A stretch of DNA of 64,000 nucleotides from a phage: assembly GCA_026683435.1 (NCBI GenBank), contig GCA_026683435.1_4866.1, one strand, 5' to 3'. The notes under the pieces were generated by a model. The model was given only the letters and a program-made list of their open reading frames with translations, did not search any database and was not told the origin of the DNA. Positions within the stretch are counted from its first letter, which is position 1, and each line of letters starts with the position of its first letter. The translations under genes and the position numbers were made by a program. Positions 459-12,450 of this stretch are shown here, in pieces.

Positions 459-500
459 AACCGCCCTTCCGTTATTGGGAGGGCGGTCTCCGTTTTATTA
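459..500 (+). terminator. putative intrinsic terminator
   Basis: Stem ACCGCCCT/AGGGCGGT followed by T-rich CTCCGTTTTATTA, between the stop at 424 and the RBS of the next gene. Confidence 0.4.
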
Positions 501-519
501 CAGATTAGGAGTGTTTGCA

Positions 520-3500
520 ATGCCGAGAGAAGATGCGGCGCAGTTTAACGGTACGCTCAGTACCGCTACTTACCCGAACCGTTATTCGGCGGTCATTCCC
601 GTCGAAGCACCGTTCTATCGCATCGGGTTAACGTTAACCGTTACCGATAAAACAACCGGAACCAAACGCAAGTTAATAGAAGGTCTCGATTATTTCTTAG
701 GACATTACTTCCAGGAATTAGCCGAGGCTGAGAACGATGCAATATACGGCAGCATAATGCTGCTGAACGCCACAGAGGTAGAATACGAGTTACTGTCGGT
801 TGGTCGACAGTATCGCATCCCTGCTTCTGAAATCGGCAAGTATCTGGTTAAGACAGATATGAAAGACCCGCGTAACTGCGATTGGTCTGAGCTGATGAAA
901 TATCCGCCGATTATCTCGCCAATCGACCCGCCAAAAGACCTCGAAGAAGCGATTCTTCACGATGAAATCGTAAAGGCGTTGGAAGATATCCGTCTGGGTA
1001 TTTTAGAGCGCGCCCACGAGCTGGATGAGGCTTTTGCCGAAGTTACCGATTTGATTTATCAGAACGGTAAGCAGGTGTTTGATGACGAAATGTATCAACA
1101 CCACCTGATTAAAAATGCACATGGTTACACCTGCGGTGACATTGGCGCTCTCCCGGTACTCGGCAAAGCCGTAGATGCGACTAAGGCATTCGGACGTACC
1201 CTGGCAGAGCTAGTGACGTTAATGTCTACCAGCGGCATCCAACAGAAACACGTTGACATGCTTCTGGATAATACCCTGGGTGATTTACTGGGCCGTATGC
1301 GTGTTCTGAATAACGACGCGATTACGTTCCAAACAACGTCTGGTCACGTTATCAGCATGAAGGGTGAGAAGTTCATCATCACCTCGACAAAACCGCTGGT
1401 ATTAAAAGCTGACCAGGATAACAACGAACCGGGCATCGCTACGGAGTTCAGTGCTGGTCTGAACACGCTTTGGGTTCACTCGGGTAAAGCAGGTGACAAG
1501 TGGGGCGCTTATGATGCAGGTGTGCTTGCACCTGTGTATAACAGCGTGTATCTCGTTACGCCGGATATGGTTAAGATGTACTTGACCTCGGTGAAGATAC
1601 TTCCAGCAAACGCCTACTTCAAGTCCAGCGACACGTTGAAGATTTACGGCTCTGGTAAAGAAACAAACAAACTTTACATGAATGCGGAGCTGCCTGCAGC
1701 AACCACAACTGTGCAGGGTTTGTTTGCGATTACTAACCTTTCGGCGTCCGCTGCAGCATCCACAGCGATTTCCCAAAAAGCTGTTACTGACTTGAAGAAC
1801 AAACTCGACGGATATGCGGACGACACGTATACAGTCAACGGTAAAGGGTTTGTGTTAGACGAAAACGGTCAAATGCATTTAACCTTAACCGCGTCGGATT
1901 TCGGTATTGAGAAGATGAACAATACCGGGCCGCTGGAGAAACCGGTTACTAACGCGTTGCGCACCGTTCTATCAGGCAAAGCGCTTACAACGCACACCCA
2001 CACCATTGCCGATCTCGATAACGTGCCGTACGCATCCACGTCTGTTACAGGTTTGGCTAAACTGTGGGATGCTATTGACACCACAACAGATAAGATGGTT
2101 ACTGCCCGTCAGGGTTTCTTGCTCGAACAAAAGATCGGTACACTGAACGACAAGATTGCTACGTTATTACCGGCGTGGACTGTCGGCGGATCATCGTACG
2201 GCAACAATAACTTCTTGCCTATACCTGTCCAGGGGAACTACGAAGGGTATACCAAAAACCAAACCTGGCAGAAAGGTTTGGCGCGTTACGAGTCTGGTAA
2301 GGTTTACTCGCTCCGTAACGGTTCTAACGGGAACCCACCTGGTGACTGGGCTATCTATTACGCCTATGCTGATGTGTCGCCAAGCAATACGCTGGAAAAT
2401 ATGCAGCAGACGTCCGTACGTTATCGACCCGCTGGAATGTCGGCGTATCCTGGGGTGAATCTGGTTGCTATTGTGATTACCGGTACCGATGCAATGATCT
2501 GCTTAGGCAGTGACGGTGCGTACTACTTGGTCATCTTCGATGGGACGATTGACCATGCAAAACATCATCGTGTTGTTAAAGTGGTGTTGGGTGATTACAA
2601 GAACGGTAATGGTGCGGGCACAGTAACGACAGCACCGTGGGCTCCAAACGCTTCTACAGACGATTTGATTGTTTGTAATGAACGTGTCTACCTGTTGCGT
2701 ACGGTGCTTACCTCCGGTAACTATTTCGTGAGTATGCGTAGCATCGCACTCAACGAACTTAATCCGGGTGGTAGCAACACGTTTGTGGCGGATGCGTTAA
2801 CAGGCGGGATATTAACGTCGGGTGAAAACGTTTATCTGCGACAGGGACAGAAACGTGCACCTTCCGATGCGCTCCCAGCACCAGTTACACAGATCTACGC
2901 AGACGCGTTAGCGAAGTGGAACAATGCAACCAACTTTGTACATGGTCCTGAGTGTAATCACGCGATTGGTGTTGATGGGCTGAGCTTTCGTGTTGGTTTA
3001 ACGCCAACGGTTTGGTTTGCTTCTACTACAGGGCAAACTATTAACTTTAAACAATGGGTGTCAAGCTTTGTTGTCGACTGTAGCGCATTAACGGTAACGC
3101 TGGAAGGTGCTGATCGATTCCCTATTGTGGCTGATCTTACCACGGTTCGTTATAACGGTGGTACTGAGATTGGGATTCCAAGCCGGAAGTGGGGCGAAGG
3201 TCAAGCTAATAACCGAACCTTTGCAACATCGCAAGACAAGTATATCGTTTCGCAAGGACATGCAGGCGATCGCGACCTAATGCCGATTGTCACGATTACC
3301 ACGTTAGACGACGGTGTGAGTTGGTACGAGTACCTGTCGTGCGACTACAACTTCACTGCCAGAAGGTTTAGTGCGGTAACGTTAAACCAAGGTCGTGGTT
3401 CTATCTACGAGCTGGGTATGGCGTATCCACTGACTCTGGGAGCGAATTCCAGACTTATCTGGTTGTCACAGCCACGTTCCCGTTTGGCAATTGAGGTTGA

Positions 3501-5703
3501 GTTTGATCCGAACACCACTTACTCAGGTAAAGCGGGGTATGGCCCAACTAACAATCGACGTGTAGTGGATTCTACCACGTACGAGAATCTGTCGCAGATG
3601 TGCCACATTGTTACACCGGCGTCGCCTGGTACAGAGTTAAACGGCTGGTATTGCACAGGACCAGAAACATTCCCTTACCACAACGTTTCTGGCACTTTCA
3701 CGATTCATGCCGATCGGTTGACGCTGTCACAAGCCGAATGGGATAAGATGAAGCAGATGATCATCGACGGTGCACCGGCAGGCGCTGCGAATGGTTATGC
3801 TTCGGAATTTATCCTTGCCGCAAATAACGCAGGAAAGGCATTGTTCTCCGTTTGGTTCATCGGCATTGGTACGGCCACACCGCTCACGTTAGCACAAGTA
3901 GCATGTACGCGTACTGTGAACAACGTTAACGTGTTGGATATCTACTACTTTACACTGAAACCAACAATCAGCAACGGGCAGGTAACATTCCCCGCAGCGA
4001 TATTGGCTTTGTTTGACTTCTATAACAACCTCGACTATGACTTGAACTATGCTACGTTGGGAGAGATAACGGGAGGAAAAACACGCCGGCCGGGACAACC
4101 TACCATGGTGTCGGTAGATGGTACGCAGTTCGGGTTGTATCTTCCACACACGTTAACCTTGCGCCAAATTGGCGACTTGGGTGCGCTTAACTACGCTGTT
4201 GGTCTTACGTTGTCTAATGGTACCTGGACGCGTTCTTCTGCTCCACACGGCGTTGGACGTATGGCACCGTCACACACTCCAGTCAGTCCAGCTTATCTGG
4301 CACATCGCGATCAAGTGATGTTACACAACTCATCTCTCGACTACGTCTATTGTGGTGGTATCGCAACGTCGTCGAGAGATTTTGTCGCGGCTCCTAATTT
4401 TAGTGGCCCGACTGAATCGGTTGTCATTGCTGGTGTGGAAACAGCTGAAGGTTGGCTGGTATATGTGACTGAGGAAGTTGACCTGCGTTTCGGCTCGAGC
4501 ACTTATAAGCTGCCTACGTGGTATATTGACCTCAGCGCAGCATTTCCAACAAACCATCAGAACCGGACATTCTACCTGCACGCCAAGGTAGAAAATGGTA
4601 CACCGAAGTACGTAATGGACGTGATTCAACATCCAGACACTGAAACGGAACTCTATATCGGGTATGTTAAAACGGGCTCGTCGCGAGTCGTCGAGACTAA
4701 CGTCGAACATGCTAAGCGATTAGGGGCGGTGAAACAACTGTTGGAACATGCGGCGGTTGAGAATAAGCATGATGTGGAAGTGGGAAGGGACGCAGCAACG
4801 GGCAGACTGGCACCATTGCGTAAAGAAGCGATGGGTCCTTTGTCGATCGATGCTACGAAAGGCTATCTGGATAGTCAGTTGCTTTATACCGTATCTGACG
4901 CACAGCGTCGCGGTAAACCGATGGTCTCCAAACGTTTCGAAGGCTTGAAAACTTTGCCGGCGTTTACTCAGGCAAACAAGTCGGGGGCGTTTTGGAAACA
5001 TCCTACAACAATTGCGACGGTAACGGCCGATGAGAACGGTGAAGCGGCATCGTTGGGAATGGAGTGGGTAGGTATCCCTACGCCTGCTTTCTCTCCGACC
5101 TCAGGAACGATGATAGTGGTGATACAAAGTAAATTCGTCGTCCCAGGTACACCGGGAGTAGAAACGACCTTTAATGTTCACGTTGCCCCATGGGAGGCGG
5201 TGGACGGCTTTTTCTACAACATCGAGGCGGAAGGTACGGATGTTAACATTGACGAAAATCCAGAAGTGTTATTGCCGTCACCACATACCGTGCACCACAA
5301 ACAGCACTCTCTGCCAGCAGGCGTGCCGTGCACCTTTACATTTGTCGCGGCGGTAAGTTCTTCAGCGCTCGAAACAGCTAACCAGCATATTTGCTCTTGG
5401 CTTTTCACGGACGCTGGGGGTCTACCAATCACCACCGATCTTTCGGATAGTAAGATTCAAATCTTACCAGCGGCGGGAGAGACCAACGGCACACCAGTTG
5501 TTCTGAACAGTCGTAGCTACACGTTTACGAATGTGACAGGTGCAATCCCGGTTGTTACCACGGGCGCTCAGGGTTTATTCCCACCACCGATCGTGGCGTG
5601 GGATGGCGATGATCTTACGTTAACGATTGCGCACGATTGGGTGAACGAGAGAGGATGGCAACAGCCTGATATTATCCAGGTCAATCTTATGTTCCGTACC
5701 TAA
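520..5703 (+). CDS. large tail-fibre-like virion protein (about 1727 aa)
   Basis: Uninterrupted 5.2-kb ORF. AGGAG lies 8 nt upstream of ATG 520; the ORF-track start 475 is an upstream TTG inside the terminator hairpin. Gly/Thr/Asn/Ser-rich with an 'ASTSVTGLAKL' fibre-type motif. Function inferred from composition and size. Confidence 0.7.
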   Translation: MPREDAAQFNGTLSTATYPNRYSAVIPVEAPFYRIGLTLTVTDKTTGTKRKLIEGLDYFLGHYFQELAEAENDAIYGSIMLLNATEVEYELLSVGRQYRIPASEIGKYLVKTDMKDPRNCDWSELMKYPPIISPIDPPKDLEEAILHDEIVKALEDIRLGILERAHELDEAFAEVTDLIYQNGKQVFDDEMYQHHLIKNAHGYTCGDIGALPVLGKAVDATKAFGRTLAELVTLMSTSGIQQKHVDMLLDNTLGDLLGRMRVLNNDAITFQTTSGHVISMKGEKFIITSTKPLVLKADQDNNEPGIATEFSAGLNTLWVHSGKAGDKWGAYDAGVLAPVYNSVYLVTPDMVKMYLTSVKILPANAYFKSSDTLKIYGSGKETNKLYMNAELPAATTTVQGLFAITNLSASAAASTAISQKAVTDLKNKLDGYADDTYTVNGKGFVLDENGQMHLTLTASDFGIEKMNNTGPLEKPVTNALRTVLSGKALTTHTHTIADLDNVPYASTSVTGLAKLWDAIDTTTDKMVTARQGFLLEQKIGTLNDKIATLLPAWTVGGSSYGNNNFLPIPVQGNYEGYTKNQTWQKGLARYESGKVYSLRNGSNGNPPGDWAIYYAYADVSPSNTLENMQQTSVRYRPAGMSAYPGVNLVAIVITGTDAMICLGSDGAYYLVIFDGTIDHAKHHRVVKVVLGDYKNGNGAGTVTTAPWAPNASTDDLIVCNERVYLLRTVLTSGNYFVSMRSIALNELNPGGSNTFVADALTGGILTSGENVYLRQGQKRAPSDALPAPVTQIYADALAKWNNATNFVHGPECNHAIGVDGLSFRVGLTPTVWFASTTGQTINFKQWVSSFVVDCSALTVTLEGADRFPIVADLTTVRYNGGTEIGIPSRKWGEGQANNRTFATSQDKYIVSQGHAGDRDLMPIVTITTLDDGVSWYEYLSCDYNFTARRFSAVTLNQGRGSIYELGMAYPLTLGANSRLIWLSQPRSRLAIEVEFDPNTTYSGKAGYGPTNNRRVVDSTTYENLSQMCHIVTPASPGTELNGWYCTGPETFPYHNVSGTFTIHADRLTLSQAEWDKMKQMIIDGAPAGAANGYASEFILAANNAGKALFSVWFIGIGTATPLTLAQVACTRTVNNVNVLDIYYFTLKPTISNGQVTFPAAILALFDFYNNLDYDLNYATLGEITGGKTRRPGQPTMVSVDGTQFGLYLPHTLTLRQIGDLGALNYAVGLTLSNGTWTRSSAPHGVGRMAPSHTPVSPAYLAHRDQVMLHNSSLDYVYCGGIATSSRDFVAAPNFSGPTESVVIAGVETAEGWLVYVTEEVDLRFGSSTYKLPTWYIDLSAAFPTNHQNRTFYLHAKVENGTPKYVMDVIQHPDTETELYIGYVKTGSSRVVETNVEHAKRLGAVKQLLEHAAVENKHDVEVGRDAATGRLAPLRKEAMGPLSIDATKGYLDSQLLYTVSDAQRRGKPMVSKRFEGLKTLPAFTQANKSGAFWKHPTTIATVTADENGEAASLGMEWVGIPTPAFSPTSGTMIVVIQSKFVVPGTPGVETTFNVHVAPWEAVDGFFYNIEAEGTDVNIDENPEVLLPSPHTVHHKQHSLPAGVPCTFTFVAAVSSSALETANQHICSWLFTDAGGLPITTDLSDSKIQILPAAGETNGTPVVLNSRSYTFTNVTGAIPVVTTGAQGLFPPPIVAWDGDDLTLTIAHDWVNERGWQQPDIIQVNLMFRT

Positions 5704-5750
5704 CAGATAGCGCTATGGGGCAAGGAAGCCCCAATCAAAGGAGTTTGGCA

Positions 5751-6953
5751 ATGGCCGAAATCATTCATCAGTACCCGCTCGACCTTACCGGGACATTAAC
5801 GTCGAACGCCGTTACACGGCGTATTACGTTAGGTTCTGGTAAAGTTAACCGGGCTTTTGCTTTTCCTGACGGAGCTTTCTACGCGGATACCTTCCGCTTG
5901 GCAGCTGCGAATAAACCAGGTGTCTACCCGTACAAACGCGGTACAGACTACGAACTGATTTTTGCACATACTGCATATCAGAAAATGACCAAGAACCGTG
6001 AAGTGGTCATGGGTGTGGTGGTAACTAACTCGGCCATTCCTACTGATATCGAAGTCTCTGCGCAAGTCGTTGGTGGTTTTCAGTCTGCGAACGTCGAAGG
6101 CATCCGACAAGCGATTGCGTCGTTGAAAATTGAAGACCGTGTGGTGGACTTCAAGGATCTTCGAAACGTACCCGATACGTTCCCGTCCGCCCCGACGTAT
6201 AAAGACCTTGGCGATATCTACGGTTTTGAGTATATCATTACCGTACTCGCGGGGATTAAAGATGCGATTAACTCCGGCTCTGCAGTACAGCTGGAAGAAA
6301 TTAAAGGTATTCTGGATGGTCTGAAAAACGACTTCCTCGACGCCTTAAATACCCACATCAACGCCGAAGGTAACGTACACAATCTCGACATTCATCAGGT
6401 TAATGGCCTGACGGAGACGGAGATTCGTGCCCTGATTCAAAGTGTACAGACTGCCATTGACGCCACTATCAAAGATATCGGCGACTTAAGAGCAGCAGAC
6501 ACAGCGTTGGGGCAACGCATCGATGCAATTGTGGCTTCGTTAGCCGCGTGGAACGACCAGCTTAACGTGGTTGCTCAAAATTACCAGAAAATGTCGTTAG
6601 CATTAGCTAACCTTAATTCTCTGGTGTTGCAATTACAGAAGATGGTTAACGATCTTCAGTCTGCACTGAATAAAACAAATCAGCGCGTCACGGATCTTGA
6701 GAATCAGGGCAAAGACTTCCAACAGCAAATTGATAACCTGCAAGGACAAATCAACAGTCTTAAAACTCAGGTTGTAAATAACACCAACGCAATTTCGCAG
6801 GCAAACCAGAATCTGGCGAACCATGCGGCTGCGGATAACCCACACCCGAATTACCTCCATAAACAGTATGGCGGTGTTGTGCAGGCTGCTGTTCACGTCA
6901 ACAACAGCCTCACCTCGCGCGACGATGTTCAAGCTGAAGCGGGTACTAAGTAA
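5751..6953 (+). CDS. fibre-associated protein with long C-terminal coiled coil (fibritin- or tail-fibre-like)
   Basis: AAGGAG lies 9 nt upstream of ATG 5751; the ORF-track ATG 5715 has no RBS. C-terminal half is heptad-like and Q/N/L-rich (LQLQKMVNDLQSALNKTNQRVTDLENQ...). Confidence 0.65.
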   Translation: MAEIIHQYPLDLTGTLTSNAVTRRITLGSGKVNRAFAFPDGAFYADTFRLAAANKPGVYPYKRGTDYELIFAHTAYQKMTKNREVVMGVVVTNSAIPTDIEVSAQVVGGFQSANVEGIRQAIASLKIEDRVVDFKDLRNVPDTFPSAPTYKDLGDIYGFEYIITVLAGIKDAINSGSAVQLEEIKGILDGLKNDFLDALNTHINAEGNVHNLDIHQVNGLTETEIRALIQSVQTAIDATIKDIGDLRAADTALGQRIDAIVASLAAWNDQLNVVAQNYQKMSLALANLNSLVLQLQKMVNDLQSALNKTNQRVTDLENQGKDFQQQIDNLQGQINSLKTQVVNNTNAISQANQNLANHAAADNPHPNYLHKQYGGVVQAAVHVNNSLTSRDDVQAEAGTK

Positions 6954-6965
6954 CTTGTTTACGAG

Positions 6966-7007
6966 CCGGACTATGTTTATGGACATAGTCCGCTCGTTCT
7001 ACTTTTT
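6966..7007 (+). terminator. hairpin plus T-run (terminator or attenuator) upstream of the Cys-repeat peptide genes
   Basis: 10-bp perfect stem CGGACTATGT/ACATAGTCCG with a 6-nt loop, followed by TTCTACTTTTTAA. Confidence 0.4.
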
Positions 7008-7018
7008 AAGGAAGCGTA

Positions 7019-7411
7019 ATGGCGATATCTATTAAAGACGTCAGAAACCGCGTCCAGATAGTCGAAGCTAACATGGCGACAGGCCCCCGTATCGACGCGC
7101 AAGTGGCCTCTAAAGCCCATAATGCGGCAGACCGATTTGGGGGTTGGACGAAAGCACAGCTAGATTGCGGCGGGACATGTTCTTGGACGTGCTCTAACGG
7201 TTGCTCGCATGGCTGTTCGAGCTGTTCAGGAAGCTGTTCTGCTTCTTGTATCGGTAGCTGTTCTTCGACGTGTGGCGGTAACTGTTCTGGTTGCTCTGGT
7301 TGTTCTGGTGGTTGCAGTAGTAGCTGTACCGGTAACTGCTCAGGTGGTTGCGGGGGGGCTTGTTCTTCCAATTGTTCCGGAGCCTGCTCCGGTGGCTGTT
7401 CAGGTCGCTAA
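7019..7411 (+). CDS. Cys/Ser/Gly-repeat small protein 1 (130 aa; putative RiPP-like precursor)
   Basis: AAGGAAG RBS. About 50-aa Cys-free N-terminal region conserved with the next two ORFs, then about 80 aa with about 21 Cys mostly as C-S-x-x units. Confidence 0.6.
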   Translation: MAISIKDVRNRVQIVEANMATGPRIDAQVASKAHNAADRFGGWTKAQLDCGGTCSWTCSNGCSHGCSSCSGSCSASCIGSCSSTCGGNCSGCSGCSGGCSSSCTGNCSGGCGGACSSNCSGACSGGCSGR

Positions 7412-7421
7412 GGGGGATTAA

Positions 7422-7826
7422 ATGGCAATTGGATTAAAAGAACTGAATAACCGATTAAACACGATCGATGCAAACGCTTTAAAGAACACCACGAATGTGC
7501 AAAACTACATTCGCAATAAAGCTACGAATAACGCCGACTTGTTCGCAGGTCAAGGTCGTTCGCACTACGACTGTGGTGGTACGTGTTCTTTTAGCTGCTC
7601 AAGTTGCTCTGGCGGCTGCACAGGGTCTGCGACAGGTGGTTGTGGGTCGACTTGTTCCGCAAACTGTGTATCAGGCTGTAGCAGCAGCTGCACGGGCTGT
7701 AGCTCTTCGTGCTCTGGTGGTTGTAGCGGCACGTGCACAGGCAGCTGTTCTGGGGGTTGTGGTAAATCCTGCTCCGCAAACTGCTCAGGTGCGTGCTCTG
7801 GTGGTTGTTCAGGTCCTAACTCCTAA
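7422..7826 (+). CDS. Cys/Ser/Gly-repeat small protein 2 (134 aa; putative RiPP-like precursor)
   Basis: AGGGGG RBS. Paralogous to 7019-7411 with the same leader-like N-terminus (MAI..K.(V/L)(R/N)NR(V/L), ..NAAD(R/L)F.G, ...(H)YDCGGTCS) and about 20 Cys in the core. Confidence 0.6.
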   Translation: MAIGLKELNNRLNTIDANALKNTTNVQNYIRNKATNNADLFAGQGRSHYDCGGTCSFSCSSCSGGCTGSATGGCGSTCSANCVSGCSSSCTGCSSSCSGGCSGTCTGSCSGGCGKSCSANCSGACSGGCSGPNS

Positions 7827-7841
7827 CTGACGGAGGCTTAT

Positions 7842-8048
7842 GTGATCAGTCTCAAGACTATTCGAAACCGTCTCGTTACGGTAGAAGGTTACATTACAAC
7901 CGCACAGGCAAACAACTATATTGCTAACCAGGGCACCGTGTCGACCACAAATAACCTGGCTGGCTTACCGCTTTCTCACTATAACTGTAATGGTGGGTGT
8001 AGCTGGTCCTGCAGCGGAAGCTGTAGCCGTGGAGCGGGGAATCGATAA
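7842..8048 (+). CDS. Cys/Ser/Gly-repeat small protein 3 (68 aa; short-core paralogue)
   Basis: GGAGG RBS with a GTG start. Conserved leader-like N-terminus (MISLKTIRNRL...LSHYNCNGGCSWSCSGSCS) and a short core with 4 Cys. Confidence 0.55.
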   Translation: MISLKTIRNRLVTVEGYITTAQANNYIANQGTVSTTNNLAGLPLSHYNCNGGCSWSCSGSCSRGAGNR

Positions 8049-8070: not shown

Positions 8071-8958
8071 ATGAAAAACGATTTGCATCTTGCGTATAAA
8101 ACCACATTCAACCACCCGCTGCATCTATCTTCCCCAGATTCAGTGCGTGCACACCTTGCTGACAAAGTCAGACTGATTGCACAGATTCCTGGTGAGTGGC
8201 CAAAGGTTCGTGGTCGCTTCTTGACCGACAAGAAGAACTACACCGTAGAAAATACGTTTAAGATCCGTGATATGGTTGCAGAGGCCATCGTTATCTTTAA
8301 CGGCGATGGTAACTCTCGTGGCGTGTTAGTCGACGGTAAGTATTTCTTCAGTGAAGGGATTTTGAACAACAGCGTCGATTTAGAACTGATGTTTACACCG
8401 TTTGACGAACTTGAAGCAAAACCGATGGCGCGCCGTTGGTGGAGTCCGGACTATCTGGGCTCGTTCCCTTACTACTTTGTACTGGTACCTGCCGATACGG
8501 AAACGTATTTCGACACCGAACCATACATCGATATCGAGGGGTATAAAGAACTCGGCATCACCCGTTTAGCGGACATGATGGCGTATAGCTATAAGTTCGT
8601 GTGGGATAAAAAGCGTTCTGTCTGGTATGCGCTGACTGACGATTTTGAAATCACCAAACGTATTCGTAAGCCGTGGATGCAACACCTGGTTCAAACCCGA
8701 TATGGGGATTACCCGGCGACAGAAGCGGACTTGAGTAAGCTGGTAAGCTTCCTCTTAACAAAGGTGGATTTAACGAAAGAAGAAGCAGAAGCTGTTTCTG
8801 AGATTCGTGGTCGTTCGGTAACGTTGGCCGATTTGAAACGTCTGAACGAAAGACACGCCGACCTGAACAAAATTTTAGCTGCCTATCACGACCCGATGTT
8901 ACTGGTGCCTGGCGCTAATGTAGACGAAGATCCTTTATTCGCCATTGATTATATTTAA
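8071..8958 (+). CDS. hypothetical protein (295 aa) in the rSAM cassette
   Basis: GGAG RBS. Co-oriented and tightly packed between the peptide genes and the rSAM genes. No motif recognised. Confidence 0.65.
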   Translation: MKNDLHLAYKTTFNHPLHLSSPDSVRAHLADKVRLIAQIPGEWPKVRGRFLTDKKNYTVENTFKIRDMVAEAIVIFNGDGNSRGVLVDGKYFFSEGILNNSVDLELMFTPFDELEAKPMARRWWSPDYLGSFPYYFVLVPADTETYFDTEPYIDIEGYKELGITRLADMMAYSYKFVWDKKRSVWYALTDDFEITKRIRKPWMQHLVQTRYGDYPATEADLSKLVSFLLTKVDLTKEEAEAVSEIRGRSVTLADLKRLNERHADLNKILAAYHDPMLLVPGANVDEDPLFAIDYI

Positions 8959-8980: not shown

Positions 8981-9895
8981 ATGACAGATCAAGTAGAATC
9001 CAGGATCTCGTCTGAACTGTACGACAAACCGTCAATTCTGTCGGTTGTCGCAACTTCTAAGTGTAACTTAGACTGTAGCTTCTGTGGAGGGGCTTATTAC
9101 ATGGATAGAGAAGATACTTCTCGTGAGTTTCAACGTGAAGAGATTCTCTCGATTTTAGAGAAGAATCCGGATATCGGTGAGATTCATTGGACGGGCGGTG
9201 AGCCGCTGTTAGCGCAGCGTAAGATTGAAGACTTCGTGAACGAGTTGAAGGAGTCTCATCCTAACCTCCGTCATCACATGTACACCAACGGTTTAAAGAT
9301 GCGTAAATCACATCTGCCGTTGCTGAAACAGTTCGACCTTATCTTTGTGTCCATTGACGGCTACAAGAAGTCGGAACGTCCGTTTATGAACTTTGTAAAC
9401 GGTGGTAATCACGAAGCGCTGGAAGTGCTGTACGAGCTGGACAACTATTACACCTGGGGTGTGATGACGCGTGACCAGTTAGGCGATAAACGCTGGTACG
9501 AAGATTTCATCGAGCTGCACCGAGCAATCTATCATTACCGTCCAGGTGGTGTGTCGTTGTTGTTTGATGCGATGATGCCGAAACCGTTATCGCCAGACCA
9601 CGTCATGAACTTCATGTACGGGTATTGGAAAATACTCGACAATATCGAACGCCTTAACATGCAGAACGATTCTGAATGTGGGCTTGCGATCAGTAAAATG
9701 TTCGATACCGAGTGCAACACGTGCAGTGAAGTGCTGTGGCTTAACGCCGACGGTACGCAGGAGCAAATTCAGAACGCCCCAGAGATATTGGAAGTCGGCT
9801 GTAATCGCCTGGCGCGTTCTATCGGCGTTGATGCGTATAACTACATCAACCGTGTAATTTCTGCTAAGCGTAAACGGGCGGCGAACAATGAGTAA
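8981..9895 (+). CDS. radical SAM enzyme (about 304 aa)
   Basis: CNLDCSFC (CX3CX2C) near the N-terminus, GGEPLL glycine motif, and C-terminal Cys cluster (C-x11-C-x2-C). ATG 8981 has a GGAG RBS; the ORF-track start 8945 is a TTG overlapping the previous gene. Confidence 0.8.
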   Translation: MTDQVESRISSELYDKPSILSVVATSKCNLDCSFCGGAYYMDREDTSREFQREEILSILEKNPDIGEIHWTGGEPLLAQRKIEDFVNELKESHPNLRHHMYTNGLKMRKSHLPLLKQFDLIFVSIDGYKKSERPFMNFVNGGNHEALEVLYELDNYYTWGVMTRDQLGDKRWYEDFIELHRAIYHYRPGGVSLLFDAMMPKPLSPDHVMNFMYGYWKILDNIERLNMQNDSECGLAISKMFDTECNTCSEVLWLNADGTQEQIQNAPEILEVGCNRLARSIGVDAYNYINRVISAKRKRAANNE

Positions 9896-11216
9896 TAGCG
9901 AACAGCAAATCCAGTACACACCACGCACGTATCAGGTTGTGACTAACCTGTCATGTAACCTGGACTGCGAATACTGCTACGAGCGTAAATATCCGCGTAA
10001 CAACAAAGTAGCAGACGTGATTGATTTTATCCACGCTTGTTTCGAGCGTGATAAAGATATCCCGAACGTTGAAGTCATCATCGATATCATCGGTGGTGAG
10101 CCGTTCATGCAGCCTAAACTTCTTTTGGCGGCCTTTGAAACCGCAGAGAAGTTATGCGCAGAACACAATCGCCCGTATATGTTCAGTATCTCCACGAACG
10201 GTACGCTTCTGGACCGTCCGCTGAACAAAGAAATTATCGAGCGCTGGAAAGACAAACTGTCTATTGGGGTCTCCATCGATGGTTTACCTGAAGTCCATGA
10301 CAAATATCGTATCTTTACCACGACGCGTGAAGGGTCGTACGAAGCTGCGGTACGCGGTTACAATTATCTGAAGAGTGTTGGCATCGCTGAGCTGGGCGTA
10401 AAGGCGACGTTTACGATCGATACATTGCCGCACTATGCCGCCAGCATGAAATCGTTAATTGACATGTCCGGCGGTGGTACCATCTCTGGTAACGTAACGT
10501 ACGAAGATATCCTGCCGCGCCATATGGCGTTGGATATCGCGAACCAGATGATGGACGTGATGGACTACTGGATTGAGAAGGGTCTGCACACCAACCCGCG
10601 TAACACGATTACACACATCATCCCGGATGGCCTGAACTTTATGGCAACTTGGGACCCGGATTGGCGTGACAAACTCTTACATGACGACTCTGTTCGTCTC
10701 GACCCAGAACGCCTGAAACCGTACTGCGGTACGTTGACGCACATGACCTGTCTCGGCTTTGATCGCAAGATTTACGGTTGTAACCGTTTCATGTCCACGG
10801 TAACTTCCCGCTCTGCTGTAGCAGAACTGGTCGGTCGTGAGTTTGTGAGCCTGGACGGTGGTAAGCTGTTAGAAGAGATTCAAACGCAGTACACCAACTA
10901 CCCAGAAACCTGTTTAGGGTGTCCGATGAAACACAGCTGCGGTAGCTGCGCAGCAGCATCGTACGAAAACGGTGAAGGTACACTGGAAGACCGTAAAGCG
11001 TATCATGCCGAGCGTCGTCAGTGTGGTTGGACTACTGCGAAGCTGATGGCGGCGGAATATTGGTATCAGAAAACTGGTACGACCCGCGCATCAGATTTGC
11101 ATGATAAATCCATGTGCTATTGTTCACGTTGTGTACGCCAACGTGCTGAAGCAGAAAAATTACAAAACGGAGCCCAGAATGAAGTCAATACTGATTCACA
11201 ATTTTACGAAGCGTAA
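9888..11216 (+). CDS. radical SAM enzyme with SPASM-type C-terminal domain (anSME-like RiPP maturase fold)
   Basis: CNLDCEYC (CX3CX2C), GGEPFM, STNGTLL and SIDG motifs, and C-terminal CLGCPMKHSCGSC plus further Cys. Start overlaps the stop of the previous rSAM gene (ATGAGTAA). Confidence 0.8.
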   Translation: MSNSEQQIQYTPRTYQVVTNLSCNLDCEYCYERKYPRNNKVADVIDFIHACFERDKDIPNVEVIIDIIGGEPFMQPKLLLAAFETAEKLCAEHNRPYMFSISTNGTLLDRPLNKEIIERWKDKLSIGVSIDGLPEVHDKYRIFTTTREGSYEAAVRGYNYLKSVGIAELGVKATFTIDTLPHYAASMKSLIDMSGGGTISGNVTYEDILPRHMALDIANQMMDVMDYWIEKGLHTNPRNTITHIIPDGLNFMATWDPDWRDKLLHDDSVRLDPERLKPYCGTLTHMTCLGFDRKIYGCNRFMSTVTSRSAVAELVGREFVSLDGGKLLEEIQTQYTNYPETCLGCPMKHSCGSCAAASYENGEGTLEDRKAYHAERRQCGWTTAKLMAAEYWYQKTGTTRASDLHDKSMCYCSRCVRQRAEAEKLQNGAQNEVNTDSQFYEA

Positions 11217-11745
11217 ACTGCACTTGGTCGATCGCTTCCTGCGCAAAAGCAAGCTGTACAATGTGCACGCAATTGTGGCAGGGGAAGACTTCACTGATGA
11301 AATCCAAAGCCTGTTGATTAAATACGGGCTGAACGTGATGATCCCGGTCTACTGCGTTGAGAAAGGACACGAGTCTGTCGCGGAAATCGAAAAGCGCAAT
11401 CCTGGCTTTGAGAAGCGACTGCTCGCATACCCACGCCACAAAATCGAACTGCTACGTCATTCCATCGATGAAGCCAGTCCTGAAAGTTTAGTGGCTTTGG
11501 GCTTGTCTTTCCCGCGGATGCGTATTCGTAACTTACGCTCCAATAATCCGGTCGACGCGTATTACACAGAGCGTCAAATCTTCGAAGAACACCTGCTCCC
11601 GCAGTTGGAAGAAGAAGAGCAACACAACATTTCTGTGTTGTGGGCCGGTAACCTCGATCAGGACTTCCAGATGCTGGACTTCGGTTTGTTGTTAGAACTT
11701 GGCCTGATTGAGGAGGACGAATGTCTGTTACTGACAAAAGCTTAA
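11179..11745 (+). CDS. hypothetical protein (about 188 aa), cassette accessory candidate
   Basis: ACGGAG upstream of ATG 11179. The ORF-track start 11101 lies deep inside the rSAM gene. Confidence 0.55.
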   Translation: MKSILIHNFTKRKLHLVDRFLRKSKLYNVHAIVAGEDFTDEIQSLLIKYGLNVMIPVYCVEKGHESVAEIEKRNPGFEKRLLAYPRHKIELLRHSIDEASPESLVALGLSFPRMRIRNLRSNNPVDAYYTERQIFEEHLLPQLEEEEQHNISVLWAGNLDQDFQMLDFGLLLELGLIEEDECLLLTKA

Positions 11746-12392
11746 CGAACGAAGAGATCCGCGCCCGTTATTTCCAGCGTGATTTGCCGATTGATCGTCA
11801 CGGTAATTTCATGGAACGAATCGGTGCGCAGGATCAGGGTCGTACCGGATTTTGTGCATTACTCCATTACCATCTCATCGAAGGGATGTCTGATAAAGAA
11901 GCCCTGGCACGTATGAAGCTGTATGAGATGTCGGAGATTGAAGCTAACTTCACATTGAAACGCACGAAAGAGTTTATTGCTAATGTGCTGGAGATTGACC
12001 TCGACGAAATTCGCGGGAATCTGAAATCCACCGCACGTTACATTTACGAAGACGTGCAGAAGATGCTGTTGGAACTTGACCACCGCTACGAAGATGAGCG
12101 TCATGGTTATATCGAGTTTGAAGGTAGCCACTTTCAAGCCGATGAATCGTCGCGCGCCATCCTCGGTCAATACATTCAGGCAGATACCGCACCAGAATAC
12201 TGGCTCGATACGCTGAATACTAAGCACAGTCCGTTTACAGTAGACCAATGTAAAGCGTTGTTGGGCGCTATTGTTGCACGCGACCAGGTGTTGCACTCAG
12301 CAATGGCAGATAACAAACGCCAAATCCGTGAGTTAGCTGAAAAGCGCGATTACACCGGTTTAAAAACATTGTCCGAATCACTCGGCATGTAA
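11721..12392 (+). CDS. hypothetical protein (223 aa), last gene of the rightward block
   Basis: GAGGAGGA RBS. Overlaps the previous gene by 25 nt and is followed by a strong terminator. Confidence 0.65.
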   Translation: MSVTDKSLTNEEIRARYFQRDLPIDRHGNFMERIGAQDQGRTGFCALLHYHLIEGMSDKEALARMKLYEMSEIEANFTLKRTKEFIANVLEIDLDEIRGNLKSTARYIYEDVQKMLLELDHRYEDERHGYIEFEGSHFQADESSRAILGQYIQADTAPEYWLDTLNTKHSPFTVDQCKALLGAIVARDQVLHSAMADNKRQIRELAEKRDYTGLKTLSESLGM

Positions 12393-12406: not shown

Positions 12407-12450
12407 GGCCCTACCTCCCCGAAGGGAGGTAGGTACCTTTTATTTATTTC
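12407..12450. terminator. bidirectional intrinsic terminator at the strand-polarity switch
   Basis: Stem CTACCTCCC/GGGAGGTAG with CGAA loop, flanked by T-runs on both strands, between convergent genes. Confidence 0.65.

What the first reader, a model, noticed from the sequence alone, without database searches (positions are those of the whole stretch)
8981..11216. Two different radical SAM enzymes, translationally coupled
Seen: both carry CX3CX2C and GGEP-type motifs, but differ in size (about 304 and 442 aa) and C-terminal Cys arrangement; only the second has a full SPASM-like motif. The start of the second overlaps the stop of the first. Inference: two enzymes suggest two modification chemistries, or division of labour between long-core and short-core precursors.
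Basis: partly seen in the sequence, partly recalled or inferred. Interest (0 to 1): 0.65.

Follow-up and report, generated by a model that had tools for sequence, protein, structure and literature searches.

The report
Paired radical-SAM enzymes for phage fibre tips
Two different, intact radical SAM enzymes of a giant Salmonella phage sit beside three unannotated cysteine-rich mini-proteins; in other phages the same cysteine-rich domain is the end of a tail fibre, so phages probably modify a fibre part chemically, which has not been described.

Summary
The window is an SPN3US-like jumbo phage. ORFs 8981-9895 (304 aa, SPN3US gp164) and 9888-11216 (442 aa, gp163) are both radical SAM proteins with intact CX3CX2C, GGEP and ribose motifs. 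They overlap by 8 nt (ATGAGTAA).

- gp163 is a CteB-like enzyme with eight SPASM cysteines and no RRE domain.
- gp164 is a small, mostly phage-borne family with only a three-Cys, twitch-like auxiliary site.

They are not duplicates. With a 295-aa protein of orphan fold (gp165) and the CXXX-repeat proteins upstream (7019-8048, absent from the SPN3US reference annotation), they form a conserved cassette. In distant phages and one bacterial contig with phage tail genes, the same Cys-rich domain is the C-terminus of fibre-like proteins.

Among IMG/VR loci with a close gp163 relative, 24 of 25 also carry a gp164 relative, once fused to it. The 25th is cut by its contig end. Cassettes with one substrate keep both enzymes, so the split between long and short cores is not supported.

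Most likely the two enzymes act together on the same Cys-rich domain, probably making thioether cross-links. The chemistry is inferred, not shown. Novelty: new variant of the in-silico CXXX-repeat rSAM system.

The parts
8981..9895 (+). rSAM-1 (SPN3US gp164, 'radical SAM superfamily protein 2'), 304 aa. Radical SAM core plus a truncated, twitch-like auxiliary domain with three conserved Cys (C245, C248, C274).
9888..11216 (+). rSAM-2 (SPN3US gp163, 'radical SAM superfamily protein 1'), 442 aa. Radical SAM core, an eight-Cys SPASM-type domain, and a clade-specific C-terminal CxCxxC extension. No N-terminal RRE.
   Evidence: PF04055 55.6 bits. Best NCBIfam hits are TIGR04115 (CXXX-repeat target maturase) 125.6 bits and PapB 113.6 bits, both below cut-off. 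The family profile hits CteB 5wgg at E 3e-40, over CteB residues 101-429. TIGR04085 SPASM scores 26.6 bits against a cut-off of 27. Conserved Cys.
9888..9895 (+). 8-nt overlap ATGAGTAA: start of rSAM-2 within the end of rSAM-1.
   Evidence: Sequence read.
7019..7411 (+). CysA, 130 aa. About 49-aa N-terminal region, then an 81-aa C-[ST]-G-x repeat core with 21 Cys. Predicted substrate.
   Evidence: RBS AAGGAAG. dN/dS 0.034 against phage STsAS. phrog_6085 at 5e-40. TIGR04114 18 bits against a cut-off of 20. 21 Cys conserved in all six genera.
7422..7826 (+). CysB, 134 aa, 20 Cys. Paralogue of CysA and predicted substrate.
   Evidence: The SPN3US reference annotates a different frame here (gp166 = window 7495-7830). 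That frame has dN/dS 5.8, whereas the CysB frame has 0.014.
7842..8048 (+). CysC, 68 aa, GTG start. Same N-terminal region, but only 4 Cys (CNGGCSWSCSGSC). Predicted short substrate.
   Evidence: Present in every jumbo-phage locus examined.
8071..8958 (+). gp165-like accessory protein, 295 aa, orphan fold. Conserved partner of the two enzymes. It sits where tail-fibre assembly chaperones usually sit.
11179..11745 (+). gp162, 188 aa, unknown function. Its start overlaps the end of rSAM-2 by 38 nt. Conserved in the jumbo-phage clade only.
11721..12392 (+). gp161, 223 aa, DUF4376 domain. Last gene of the co-directional block.
   Evidence: PF14301 36.9 bits..
475..6953 (+). Upstream virion genes gp168 (1742 aa; the SPN3US proteomics paper calls it a baseplate/tail-fibre candidate) and gp167 (412 aa, coiled-coil virion protein). 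They place the cassette in the tail/fibre module.
   Evidence: SPN3US virion mass spectrometry in PMC5694885.
6961..6997 (+). Stable hairpin followed by a U-rich tract, between gp167 and CysA (terminator- or attenuator-like).
   Evidence: RNA fold -24.1 kcal/mol, z -4.5.
12410..12433 (.). Bidirectional intrinsic-terminator-like hairpin that closes the block. gp160 converges from the other strand.

Best explanation
The two genes encode a cooperating pair of radical SAM protein maturases. Together with the gp165-like accessory protein, they most likely modify the cysteine-rich C-[ST]-G-x repeat domains of the three small proteins encoded just upstream (CysA, CysB, CysC).

In other phages and in one bacterial contig with phage tail genes, the same domain is the C-terminal end of fibre-like proteins. 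So the SPN3US proteins are free-standing versions of that domain, probably a tail-fibre tip, and the cassette is probably a tail-fibre maturation module rather than an antibiotic pathway.

Likely mechanism (inferred):
1. Neither enzyme has an RRE. gp165, and/or the conserved junction NAxxLxG...Y-x-C-x2-3-C-S-W-x-C, presents the Cys-rich segment.
2. gp163 is CteB/PapB-like, with two auxiliary clusters. It uses SAM-derived 5'-deoxyadenosyl radicals to make Cys-S-to-carbon (thioether) cross-links repeatedly along the CXXX repeats.
3. gp164 has a single auxiliary site with three Cys. It carries out a second step or a second kind of link on the same chain, or between chains of a trimer.

The result would be a covalently stapled, reduction-proof rod, made in the reducing cytoplasm where disulfides cannot form.

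Shown here: gene content, motifs, folds, co-conservation, the fusion, and homology of the substrate domain to the ends of fibre-like proteins.
Inferred: that the Cys-rich proteins are the substrates, the thioether chemistry, the roles of each enzyme and of gp165, and presence in the virion.
For: Both enzymes are intact and under purifying selection.
- PF04055 hits.
- Invariant cluster, GGEP, TNG and SxD motifs across six genera and across distant relatives.
- dN/dS of 0.078 and 0.052.

gp163 resembles thioether-forming peptide maturases.
- Its best NCBIfam hits are the CXXX-repeat-target maturase and PapB.
- Its best solved relative is the thioether synthase CteB, E 3e-40, aligned through the SPASM region.
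- Eight SPASM cysteines are conserved family-wide.

gp164 is modelled with high confidence (pLDDT 88.7). It resembles peptide-modifying SPASM/twitch enzymes most closely over about 260 residues.

The cassette is conserved. The order fibre genes, CysA, CysB, CysC, gp165, rSAM-1, rSAM-2 holds in Seoulvirus, Erskinevirus, Machinavirus, Wellingtonvirus and Derbicusvirus.

Distant relatives of gp163 (33-39% identity) lie next to a gp164-like rSAM, a gp165-like protein, and a fibre-like protein ending in the same Cys-rich domain. Three of the four contexts read are beside phage tail or neck genes (GpJ-type tail tip, T4 gp13-like).

Counts among IMG/VR loci with a close gp163 relative:
- 23 of 25 have a separate gp164-like gene, 1 has a fusion, and 1 is cut by its contig end.
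- 24 of 25 have a gp165-like gene.
- 23 of 25 have a Cys-rich ORF.

The L035 fusion (686 aa, rSAM-1 then rSAM-2) argues for joint action.

gp161 to gp166 were not found in purified SPN3US virions, whereas gp167 to gp173 were. This fits enzymes and chaperones (PMC5694885, Supplementary Table 1).
Against: - No modification has been observed. Nothing here shows that CysA, CysB or CysC are substrates, are modified, or are in the virion. They were absent from the annotation used for proteomics, and their cores have no tryptic sites, so non-detection says nothing.
- The scores to TIGR04115 and PapB are far below the family cut-offs (125.6 against 350; 113.6 against 340). So the chemistry cannot be transferred with confidence.
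- The cores lack the Asp/Glu/Asn acceptors used by PapB, QhpD and NxxcB.
- More distant viral and bacterial relatives pair a single rSAM with CXXX-rich proteins. So what the second enzyme adds is unknown.
- The three auxiliary Cys of gp164 are not kept in every distant relative and are missing in the fused form.
- That the host proteins in the distant cassettes are tail fibres rests on neighbouring genes, HxH-containing repeats read by eye, and one weak Pfam hit (PF12789, 16.7 bits against 27).
Confidence: 0.6

Rival explanations
1. Division of labour by substrate. One enzyme matures the long-core proteins (CysA and CysB) and the other matures the short-core CysC, each working alone.
For: Two size classes of substrate are conserved in all jumbo-phage genera. 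One metagenomic relative (L013) has an extra gp164 paralogue inserted right after CysA, which hints at some substrate specialisation among gp164 copies.
Against: Cassettes with only one Cys-rich substrate keep both enzymes (L008, L029-L031, L036). The two are fused in L035. Co-occurrence is 24 of 24 assessable loci. Both enzyme families are older than the split into three small proteins.
Confidence: 0.08
2. A diffusible RiPP. CysA, CysB and CysC are leader-core precursors of secreted, cross-linked peptides (for example against competitors or for host manipulation), unrelated to the virion.
For: The proteins are small, with a conserved roughly 50-aa N-terminal region and hypervariable-looking cores. 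The rSAM-2 family is nearest to RiPP maturases. Firmicutes relatives pair with 52-88-aa Cys-rich peptides. No virion detection has been reported.
Against: No protease, transporter or immunity gene lies in the block. The cassette sits inside the tail/fibre module in every phage examined. The same domain, with the same junction motif, is the C-terminus of 250-570-aa fibre-like proteins, where no leader could be removed. The number of Cys (21) is strictly conserved in CysA across genera, as expected for a structural element.
Confidence: 0.14
3. Only gp163 is the catalyst. gp164 is a non-catalytic or purely structural partner (scaffold, or substrate-binding pseudo-enzyme).
For: Single-rSAM systems exist for CXXX-rich proteins. 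The auxiliary Cys of gp164 are variable in distant relatives and absent in the fusion.
Against: The radical SAM cluster Cys, GGEP, TNG and the Ser of the SxD motif are invariant in all 12 diverse gp164-family members aligned, including the fused one. dN/dS is 0.078.
Confidence: 0.07
4. The enzymes act on something other than the Cys-rich proteins. Examples are nucleotide or DNA hypermodification, cofactor synthesis, or an anSME-like oxidation of Cys/Ser to formylglycine, with the Cys-rich domain simply binding metals.
For: gp164 gives weak N-terminal hits to viperin, MoaA, QueE and NrdG models. Phage rSAM enzymes are discussed in the literature on thymidine hypermodification (PMC8989533, seen). 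anSME is the second-best solved relative of gp163. Fibre-like proteins in the distant cassettes carry HxH-containing repeats upstream of the Cys-rich domain.
Against: Those gp164 hits cover only the generic core (residues about 30-145) and are far below cut-offs. No nucleotide-modification genes are adjacent. Linkage to a Cys-rich ORF holds in 23 of 25 close loci and 51 of 54 more distant ones. The cores lack the anSME C/S-x-P/A-x-R motif.
Confidence: 0.08

Closest known systems
CXXX-repeat peptide / radical SAM maturase system (NCBIfam TIGR04114 target, TIGR04115 maturase; to my knowledge defined by comparative genomics with no published chemistry)
   Same: A SPASM-type radical SAM enzyme is encoded next to proteins made of tandem C-x-x-x units. 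TIGR04115 is the best NCBIfam match of gp163, and TIGR04114 the only match of CysA and CysB. The relatives found in Firmicutes and in many gut-phage contigs look like this type.
   Different: Scores are far below cut-off (125.6 against 350; 18 and 17 against 20). Here the system has a second, twitch-like rSAM and a gp165-like protein, which the single-enzyme systems lack. The substrates carry a different N-terminal region and junction motif, which elsewhere ends fibre-like proteins. The Firmicutes enzymes are 706-728-aa fusions.
CteB / SCIFF and PapB (ranthipeptide thioether synthases)
   Same: CteB is the closest solved structure by sequence (E 3e-40, through the SPASM domain), and PapB is the second-best family hit. 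All act on Cys-rich peptides; PapB acts repeatedly on CX3D units (established knowledge).
   Different: gp163 starts at the radical SAM core, equivalent to CteB residue 101, so it lacks the N-terminal RRE. The cores have no Asp/Glu acceptors. The substrates are domains of 20-110 residues with up to 28 Cys, often at the end of large fibre-like proteins.
HxsB / HxsC pair of the His-Xaa-Ser repeat system (TIGR03978 / TIGR03977)
   Same: A long SPASM rSAM is paired with a short rSAM of about 290 aa. Both are encoded with a short-period tandem-repeat peptide and an accessory protein. gp163 hits HxsB (75 bits) and gp164 hits HxsC (45 bits).
   Different: Both scores are far below cut-off (370 and 268). 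The repeat is HXS, not CXXX. There is no phage or fibre context. The function of the Hxs system is itself unknown (my knowledge).
Twitch / three-Cys auxiliary-cluster radical SAM enzymes (MoaA, BtrN, SkfB) and the cyclophane synthase ChlB
   Different: There is no sequence-family membership. Hits cover only the generic core, and no SPASM HMM hit was found on the C-terminal 82 residues. Full-length relatives are few: 25 cluster representatives at E <= 1e-30 among 1.84 billion. Those whose context was read here are nearly all in viral contigs.
Two-enzyme sactipeptide systems such as thuricin CD TrnC/TrnD (from memory)
   Same: Two adjacent radical SAM maturases are encoded with more than one precursor.
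   Different: There each enzyme is thought to serve its own peptide. Here both enzymes persist with a single substrate and can be fused.

Membership tests
Radical SAM superfamily (PF04055) | CX3CX2C cluster motif and a Pfam score above the gathering threshold | tested here: met
   gp164 has C28/C32/C35 and scores 58.7 bits. gp163 has C23/C27/C30 and scores 55.6 bits. The cut-off is 29.5.
Radical SAM superfamily (PF04055) | SAM-binding elements (GGE motif, ribose T/S-N-G motif, SxD of beta-4) conserved | tested here: met
   These are invariant in orthologues of six genera. For gp164 they are also invariant in 12 diverse family members.
SPASM subfamily (TIGR04085 / PF13186) | Seven-Cys motif CX9-15GX4C ... 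CX2CX5CX3C ... C after the core | tested here: met
   For gp163: C288-x9-C298, then C342-x2-C345-x5-C351-x2-C354, then C379, plus the upstream C280. The last spacing is 2, not 3. These are conserved in 21 diverse relatives and align to the CteB SPASM region.
SPASM subfamily (TIGR04085 / PF13186) | Domain HMM above its curated cut-off | tested here: inconclusive
   For gp163, TIGR04085 scores 26.6 bits against a cut-off of 27, covering profile positions 1-86 of 93. PF13186 is not reported. For gp164 there is no hit at E <= 10, so gp164 is not a SPASM protein by sequence.
Twitch-type radical SAM | Single auxiliary cluster domain equal to the first half of SPASM (Cys, beta-hairpin, Cys, helix) | tested here: inconclusive
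   [not shown]
TIGR04115 CXXX-repeat-target maturase (equivalog) | Score >= 350 bits | tested here: not met
   125.6 bits. It is the best hit but only a distant relative.
TIGR04114 Cys-rich CXXX repeat | Score >= 20 bits | tested here: not met
   CysA 18 bits, CysB 17.1 bits, CysC no hit. The period-4 Cys spacing itself is present in 17 of 20 gaps in CysA and 16 of 19 in CysB. Pfam PF27846 (reported for the L009/L010 fibre-like protein) is not in the local Pfam copy.
PapB-family ranthipeptide maturase (NF047865) | Score >= 340 bits; CX3[DE] acceptor motifs in the substrate | tested here: not met
   113.6 bits. The cores contain essentially no Asp or Glu.
SCIFF maturase (CteB/ScfB type) | N-terminal RRE (winged helix) domain for leader binding | tested here: not met
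   The gp163 family aligns to CteB only from CteB residue 101. The cluster motif starts at residue 23.
HxsB / HxsC paired radical SAM system | Scores >= 370 and >= 267.9 bits; HXS repeat peptide | tested here: not met
   75.1 and 45 bits. The repeats are CXXX.
RiPP pathway in the strict sense | Leader removed from core; protease and/or exporter | tested here: inconclusive
   No protease or transporter family hit in the block. In distant cassettes the domain is the C-terminus of large fibre-like proteins. Leader cleavage cannot be tested computationally.
Phage tail-fibre component | Presence in the virion, attached to the fibre or baseplate | not testable with these tools
   Published SPN3US proteomics used an annotation lacking these ORFs. 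The cores have no internal Lys or Arg for trypsin.

The most novel reading that the evidence does not exclude
Phages use a dedicated pair of radical SAM enzymes plus an orphan-fold chaperone to install a ladder of covalent (thioether-type) cross-links in a cysteine-rich tail-fibre tip. This would be the first radical-SAM post-translational modification of a virion structural protein, and RiPP-type chemistry applied to whole protein domains. The module is shared by SPN3US-like jumbo phages and other viral contigs, and occurs beside GpJ-type tail genes on two other contigs, one of them bacterial. A single-enzyme cousin occurs in many more phage contigs.
Probability: 0.4. Interest if true: 0.85.

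Novelty: new variant of a known kind. Interest (0 to 1): 0.66.

Why it matters
- **Phage biology.** If the reading is right, tail-fibre parts can be chemically cross-linked by phage-encoded radical enzymes inside the reducing cytoplasm. That would be a new route to mechanical or chemical stability of adsorption organelles, and it could bear on host range and on engineering therapeutic jumbo phages.
- **Enzymology.** It offers a compact, tractable system: a 68-aa substrate, two enzymes and one accessory protein. With it one could work out what the uncharacterised CXXX-repeat maturases do and why a twitch-type partner is needed.
- **Annotation.** The reference SPN3US genome lacks the three substrate genes and carries a wrong-frame ORF in their place. 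This probably hid them from the published virion proteomics.

Tried and rejected
**Literature.** Searches for SPN3US or jumbo-phage radical SAM, CXXX repeat, TIGR04115, tail fibre plus radical SAM or thioether, and viral RiPPs found nothing on this system. The SPN3US proteomics papers do not mention gp163 to gp166. The cyanophage paper concerns an unrelated rSAM.

**gp165.**
- No Pfam or NCBIfam hit.
- BFVD returns only its own orthologue.
- AFDB50 was not available.

**Link between gp167/gp168 and the fibre-like proteins that carry the Cys-rich domain elsewhere.** No significant similarity.

**Recent DNA tandem duplication as the origin of the repeats.** Only weak, short DNA repeats were found.

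**Degenerate-duplicate hypothesis.** Rejected.

**Bacterial representative genomes.** They hold only distant (31% identity or less), single-enzyme relatives.
Full report
**What the window is.** The 5.5 kb around the finding is 98-99% identical to Salmonella phage SPN3US and its relatives (Seoulvirus, jumbo myoviruses of about 240 kb). The two ORFs are SPN3US gp164 and gp163. GenBank already names them 'putative radical SAM superfamily protein 2' and '1'. At the level of 'two radical SAM genes are here', the finding is therefore known. No function is recorded, and none of my ten literature searches found one.

**Checking the observation.**
- ORF 8981-9895 has an ATG start with GGAG 9 nt upstream and encodes 304 aa. 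ORF 9888-11216 encodes 442 aa. The second ATG lies within the last codons of the first ORF, giving the overlap ATGAGTAA at 9888-9895.
- Both score well above the Pfam gathering threshold for PF04055.
- I aligned orthologues from Erskinevirus (Asesino), Machinavirus (Huxley), Wellingtonvirus (Kwan) and Derbicusvirus (CR5, Phobos). In both proteins the CX3CX2C, GGEP, T-N-G and S-x-D elements are invariant.
- gp164 is 40-55% identical across these genera, and gp163 is 63-78% identical.
- Against phage STsAS, dN/dS is 0.078 for gp164 and 0.052 for gp163.

**How the two enzymes differ.**

*gp163*
- It conserves C280, C288, C298, C342, C345, C351, C354 and C379. The same eight positions are kept in a 21-member alignment that reaches down to 26% identity.
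- A profile of that alignment finds the thioether synthase CteB (5wgg) at E 3e-40, aligned from CteB residue 101 to 429. That span covers the core and the SPASM domain but not CteB's N-terminal RRE. anSME is next, at 8e-19.
- The SPASM domain model TIGR04085 scores 26.6 bits against a cut-off of 27.
- The best family models are TIGR04115 (CXXX-repeat target maturase, 125.6 bits) and PapB (113.6 bits), both far below cut-off. They are followed by the geopeptide, HxsB, YhhB, anSME, QhpD, CcpM and SCIFF models. PqqE and the sactipeptide models score lower.
- The jumbo-phage proteins add a C-terminal C-x-C-x2-C and a conserved C51.

*gp164*
- It has only three conserved C-terminal cysteines: C245, C248 and C274.
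- The motif G-C-N-R around C274 matches Y-G-C-N-R-F around C298 of gp163. The three Cys therefore correspond to the first half of a SPASM domain.
- An AlphaFold model (pLDDT 88.7) places C245 and C248 before a beta-hairpin and C274 before a helix.
- No SPASM HMM matches the C-terminal 82 residues.
- gp164 is thus a twitch-like enzyme whose auxiliary site has three protein ligands.

*The gp164 family is small*
- The word-indexed search found only jumbo-phage relatives, and then nothing until 50 bits.
- A full HMMER scan of 1.84 billion cluster representatives found 25 at E <= 1e-30.

**The neighbours.** Upstream lie three ORFs with good ribosome-binding sites:
- CysA, 7019-7411, 130 aa, 21 Cys.
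- CysB, 7422-7826, 134 aa, 20 Cys.
- CysC, 7842-8048, 68 aa, 4 Cys.

All three share a roughly 50-aa N-terminal region followed by C-[ST]-G-x repeats. They belong to one PHROG of unknown function. They touch TIGR04114 just below cut-off.

The SPN3US reference does not annotate them. Its 'gp166' is another frame of CysB. That frame has dN/dS 5.8 against STsAS, whereas the Cys frames have 0.014-0.056.

All three proteins are present in every related genus, and CysA always has 21 Cys. Between them and the enzymes lies gp165 (295 aa). It is confidently modelled (pLDDT 88.4) but has no structural neighbour in PDB or BFVD apart from its own orthologue.

The block runs on through gp162 and gp161 (DUF4376) to a bidirectional terminator at 12410-12433. 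A strong hairpin with a U tract separates gp167 from CysA.

**Evidence from elsewhere.** Relatives of gp163 at 33-39% identity are found in four other contexts:
- In a Deferribacter abyssi contig (L008) and a metagenomic contig (L011), they follow a GpJ-type tail tip gene.
- In a 213-kb viral contig (L009/L010), they follow a T4 gp13-like neck gene.

In each case the gene order is as follows:
1. A fibre-like protein whose C-terminus is the same Cys-rich domain.
2. A gp165-like protein (not detected in L009/L010).
3. A gp164-like rSAM.
4. The gp163-like rSAM.

Details of these relatives:
- The fibre-like proteins of L008 and L011 have H-x-H-containing repeats. L008 gives a weak hit to Pfam PTR, 'phage tail repeat like'.
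- The Cys-rich domain starts at the same junction: ...NA-x2-L-x-G-Q-x5-Y-x-C-x2-3-C-S-W-x-C.
- An HMM of the jumbo-phage N-terminal region matches these junctions.
- gp164 aligns over its full length to the L008 and L011 enzymes (E 4e-13 and 7e-8). gp165 aligns to the L011 protein (E 3e-6).

A scan of IMG/VR gave 458 confirmed relatives, of which the best 79 loci were analysed. I refer below to the group with a close gp163 relative as class I and to the rest as class II. Results of the count:

| Group | Loci | gp164-like gene | gp165-like gene | Cys-rich ORF |
|---|---|---|---|---|
| Close gp163 relative (>= 340 bits) | 25 | 23 separate, 1 fused, 1 cut by contig end | 24 | 23 |
| More distant relative | 54 | 1 | 0 | 51 |

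- The fusion is L035, 686 aa, with rSAM-1 N-terminal. The locus cut by its contig end is L034.
- In the more distant group, the Cys-rich proteins have up to 92 Cys and a different N-terminal domain.
- Gene order can be permuted (L028, L032, L036). One phage (L013) has a second gp164 copy.
- In 185,579 representative bacterial and archaeal genomes the best relatives reach only 31% identity. They are single enzymes next to 660-aa Cys-rich proteins (Margulisiibacteriota, Termititenax), or 706-728-aa fused enzymes next to short Cys-rich peptides in Firmicutes, as expected for the TIGR04115 type.

**Interpretation.**
- The pair gp164 plus gp163, together with gp165, is an old, co-inherited unit tied to one kind of substrate domain. 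As sampled here it is mostly phage-borne.
- Single-substrate cassettes keep both enzymes, and the enzymes can be fused. They therefore most likely act on the same chains, not on separate long and short peptides.
- The domain is the C-terminal end of fibre-like proteins next to tail genes. In SPN3US it lies directly after the virion proteins gp168 and gp167, which were found in virions while gp161 to gp166 were not. A structural role at a fibre tip is therefore more likely than a secreted peptide.
- gp165 sits where fibre assembly chaperones normally sit. Neither enzyme has an RRE. I infer that gp165 helps present the substrate.

The chemistry is inferred from the nearest characterised relatives (CteB, PapB): thioether links from Cys sulfur to a carbon of a neighbouring residue or chain. 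A covalent, non-reducible staple would make sense for an organelle assembled in the reducing cytoplasm.

I put about 0.75 on 'both are active maturases of the adjacent Cys-rich proteins'. I put about 0.45 on thioether chemistry specifically, and about 0.4 on the full fibre-tip reading.

**Limits.**
- No experiment supports modification or virion location.
- Family scores are below the cut-offs.
- The cores lack the acceptor residues of known ranthipeptide systems.
- The auxiliary Cys of gp164 vary in distant members and are absent in the fusion.
- What gp164 adds to a chemistry that single-enzyme systems apparently manage alone is unexplained.

**Verdict.**
- Observation: confirmed.
- Interpretation: partly supported.
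- Novelty: the genes are annotated, but I found no description of their link to unannotated CXXX-repeat proteins, to a domain that ends fibre-like proteins, and to an obligate three-protein maturation set. I rate it a new variant of the in-silico CXXX-repeat radical SAM system.
- Interest: 0.66.

Noticed in passing
window 7019-8048 (and 7495-7830): The reference SPN3US record (JN641803) does not annotate the three Cys-rich genes. Instead it annotates 'gp166' in a different frame of CysB. That frame has dN/dS 5.8 against phage STsAS, whereas the Cys frames have 0.014-0.056. Several Erwinia and Cronobacter phage records call opposite-strand or wrong-frame ORFs in this stretch.
   Followed up: yes
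L035 7137-9197 (IMG/VR contig IMGVR_UViG_3300028886_000034, 284 kb): A single 686-aa ORF fuses a gp164-like domain (N-terminal, without the three auxiliary Cys) to a gp163-like SPASM domain.
   Followed up: partly
L013 4542-5453: A metagenomic Seoulvirus-like contig carries a second gp164 paralogue inserted between CysA and CysB, in addition to the usual copy.
   Followed up: no
L037-L090 (IMG/VR) and L092-L101 (bacterial MAGs): Among the 79 viral loci analysed, 54 pair a single, more distant gp163-like rSAM with very Cys-rich proteins (up to 92 Cys in 480 aa). These proteins have a different N-terminal domain and no gp164 or gp165 partner. The IMG/VR scan confirmed 458 relatives in all. Margulisiibacteriota and Termititenax genomes have 660-aa versions. 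Firmicutes have 706-728-aa fused enzymes with 52-88-aa peptides.
   Followed up: partly
window 9888-11216, residues C51 and C410-C415: gp163 of the jumbo-phage clade has an extra conserved C-x-C-x2-C near the C-terminus and a conserved Cys at position 51. Both are absent from distant relatives. This may be a further metal site.
   Followed up: no
[not shown]
   Followed up: yes
window 6961-6997: A 15-bp hairpin followed by UUCUACUUUUU lies between gp167 and CysA (-24.1 kcal/mol, z -4.5). It could be a terminator or attenuator that separates the fibre genes from the Cys-rich/rSAM block.
   Followed up: partly
window 12410-12433: A perfect 10-bp GC-rich hairpin with T runs on both strands lies between the convergent genes gp161 (+) and gp160 (-). 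gp160 is reported as a very abundant head protein in SPN3US.
   Followed up: no
phage records LR535901-LR535912 (SPFM1, 6, 7, 8, 9, 10, 12, 14, 20): In several SPFM genomes the two rSAM genes and gp165 give only fragmentary, low-identity matches and odd protein lengths. This looks like frameshift or assembly errors rather than biology.
   Followed up: no
L008 3490-4398, L011 2682-3458: The fibre-like proteins that carry the Cys-rich tip have repeats of the type H-x-H-D-x-R-Y-[YF]-T-E-x-E. These resemble the metal-binding HxH repeats of T4-type fibres (from memory), so both metal-clamped and Cys-rich segments may occur in one fibre.
   Followed up: no
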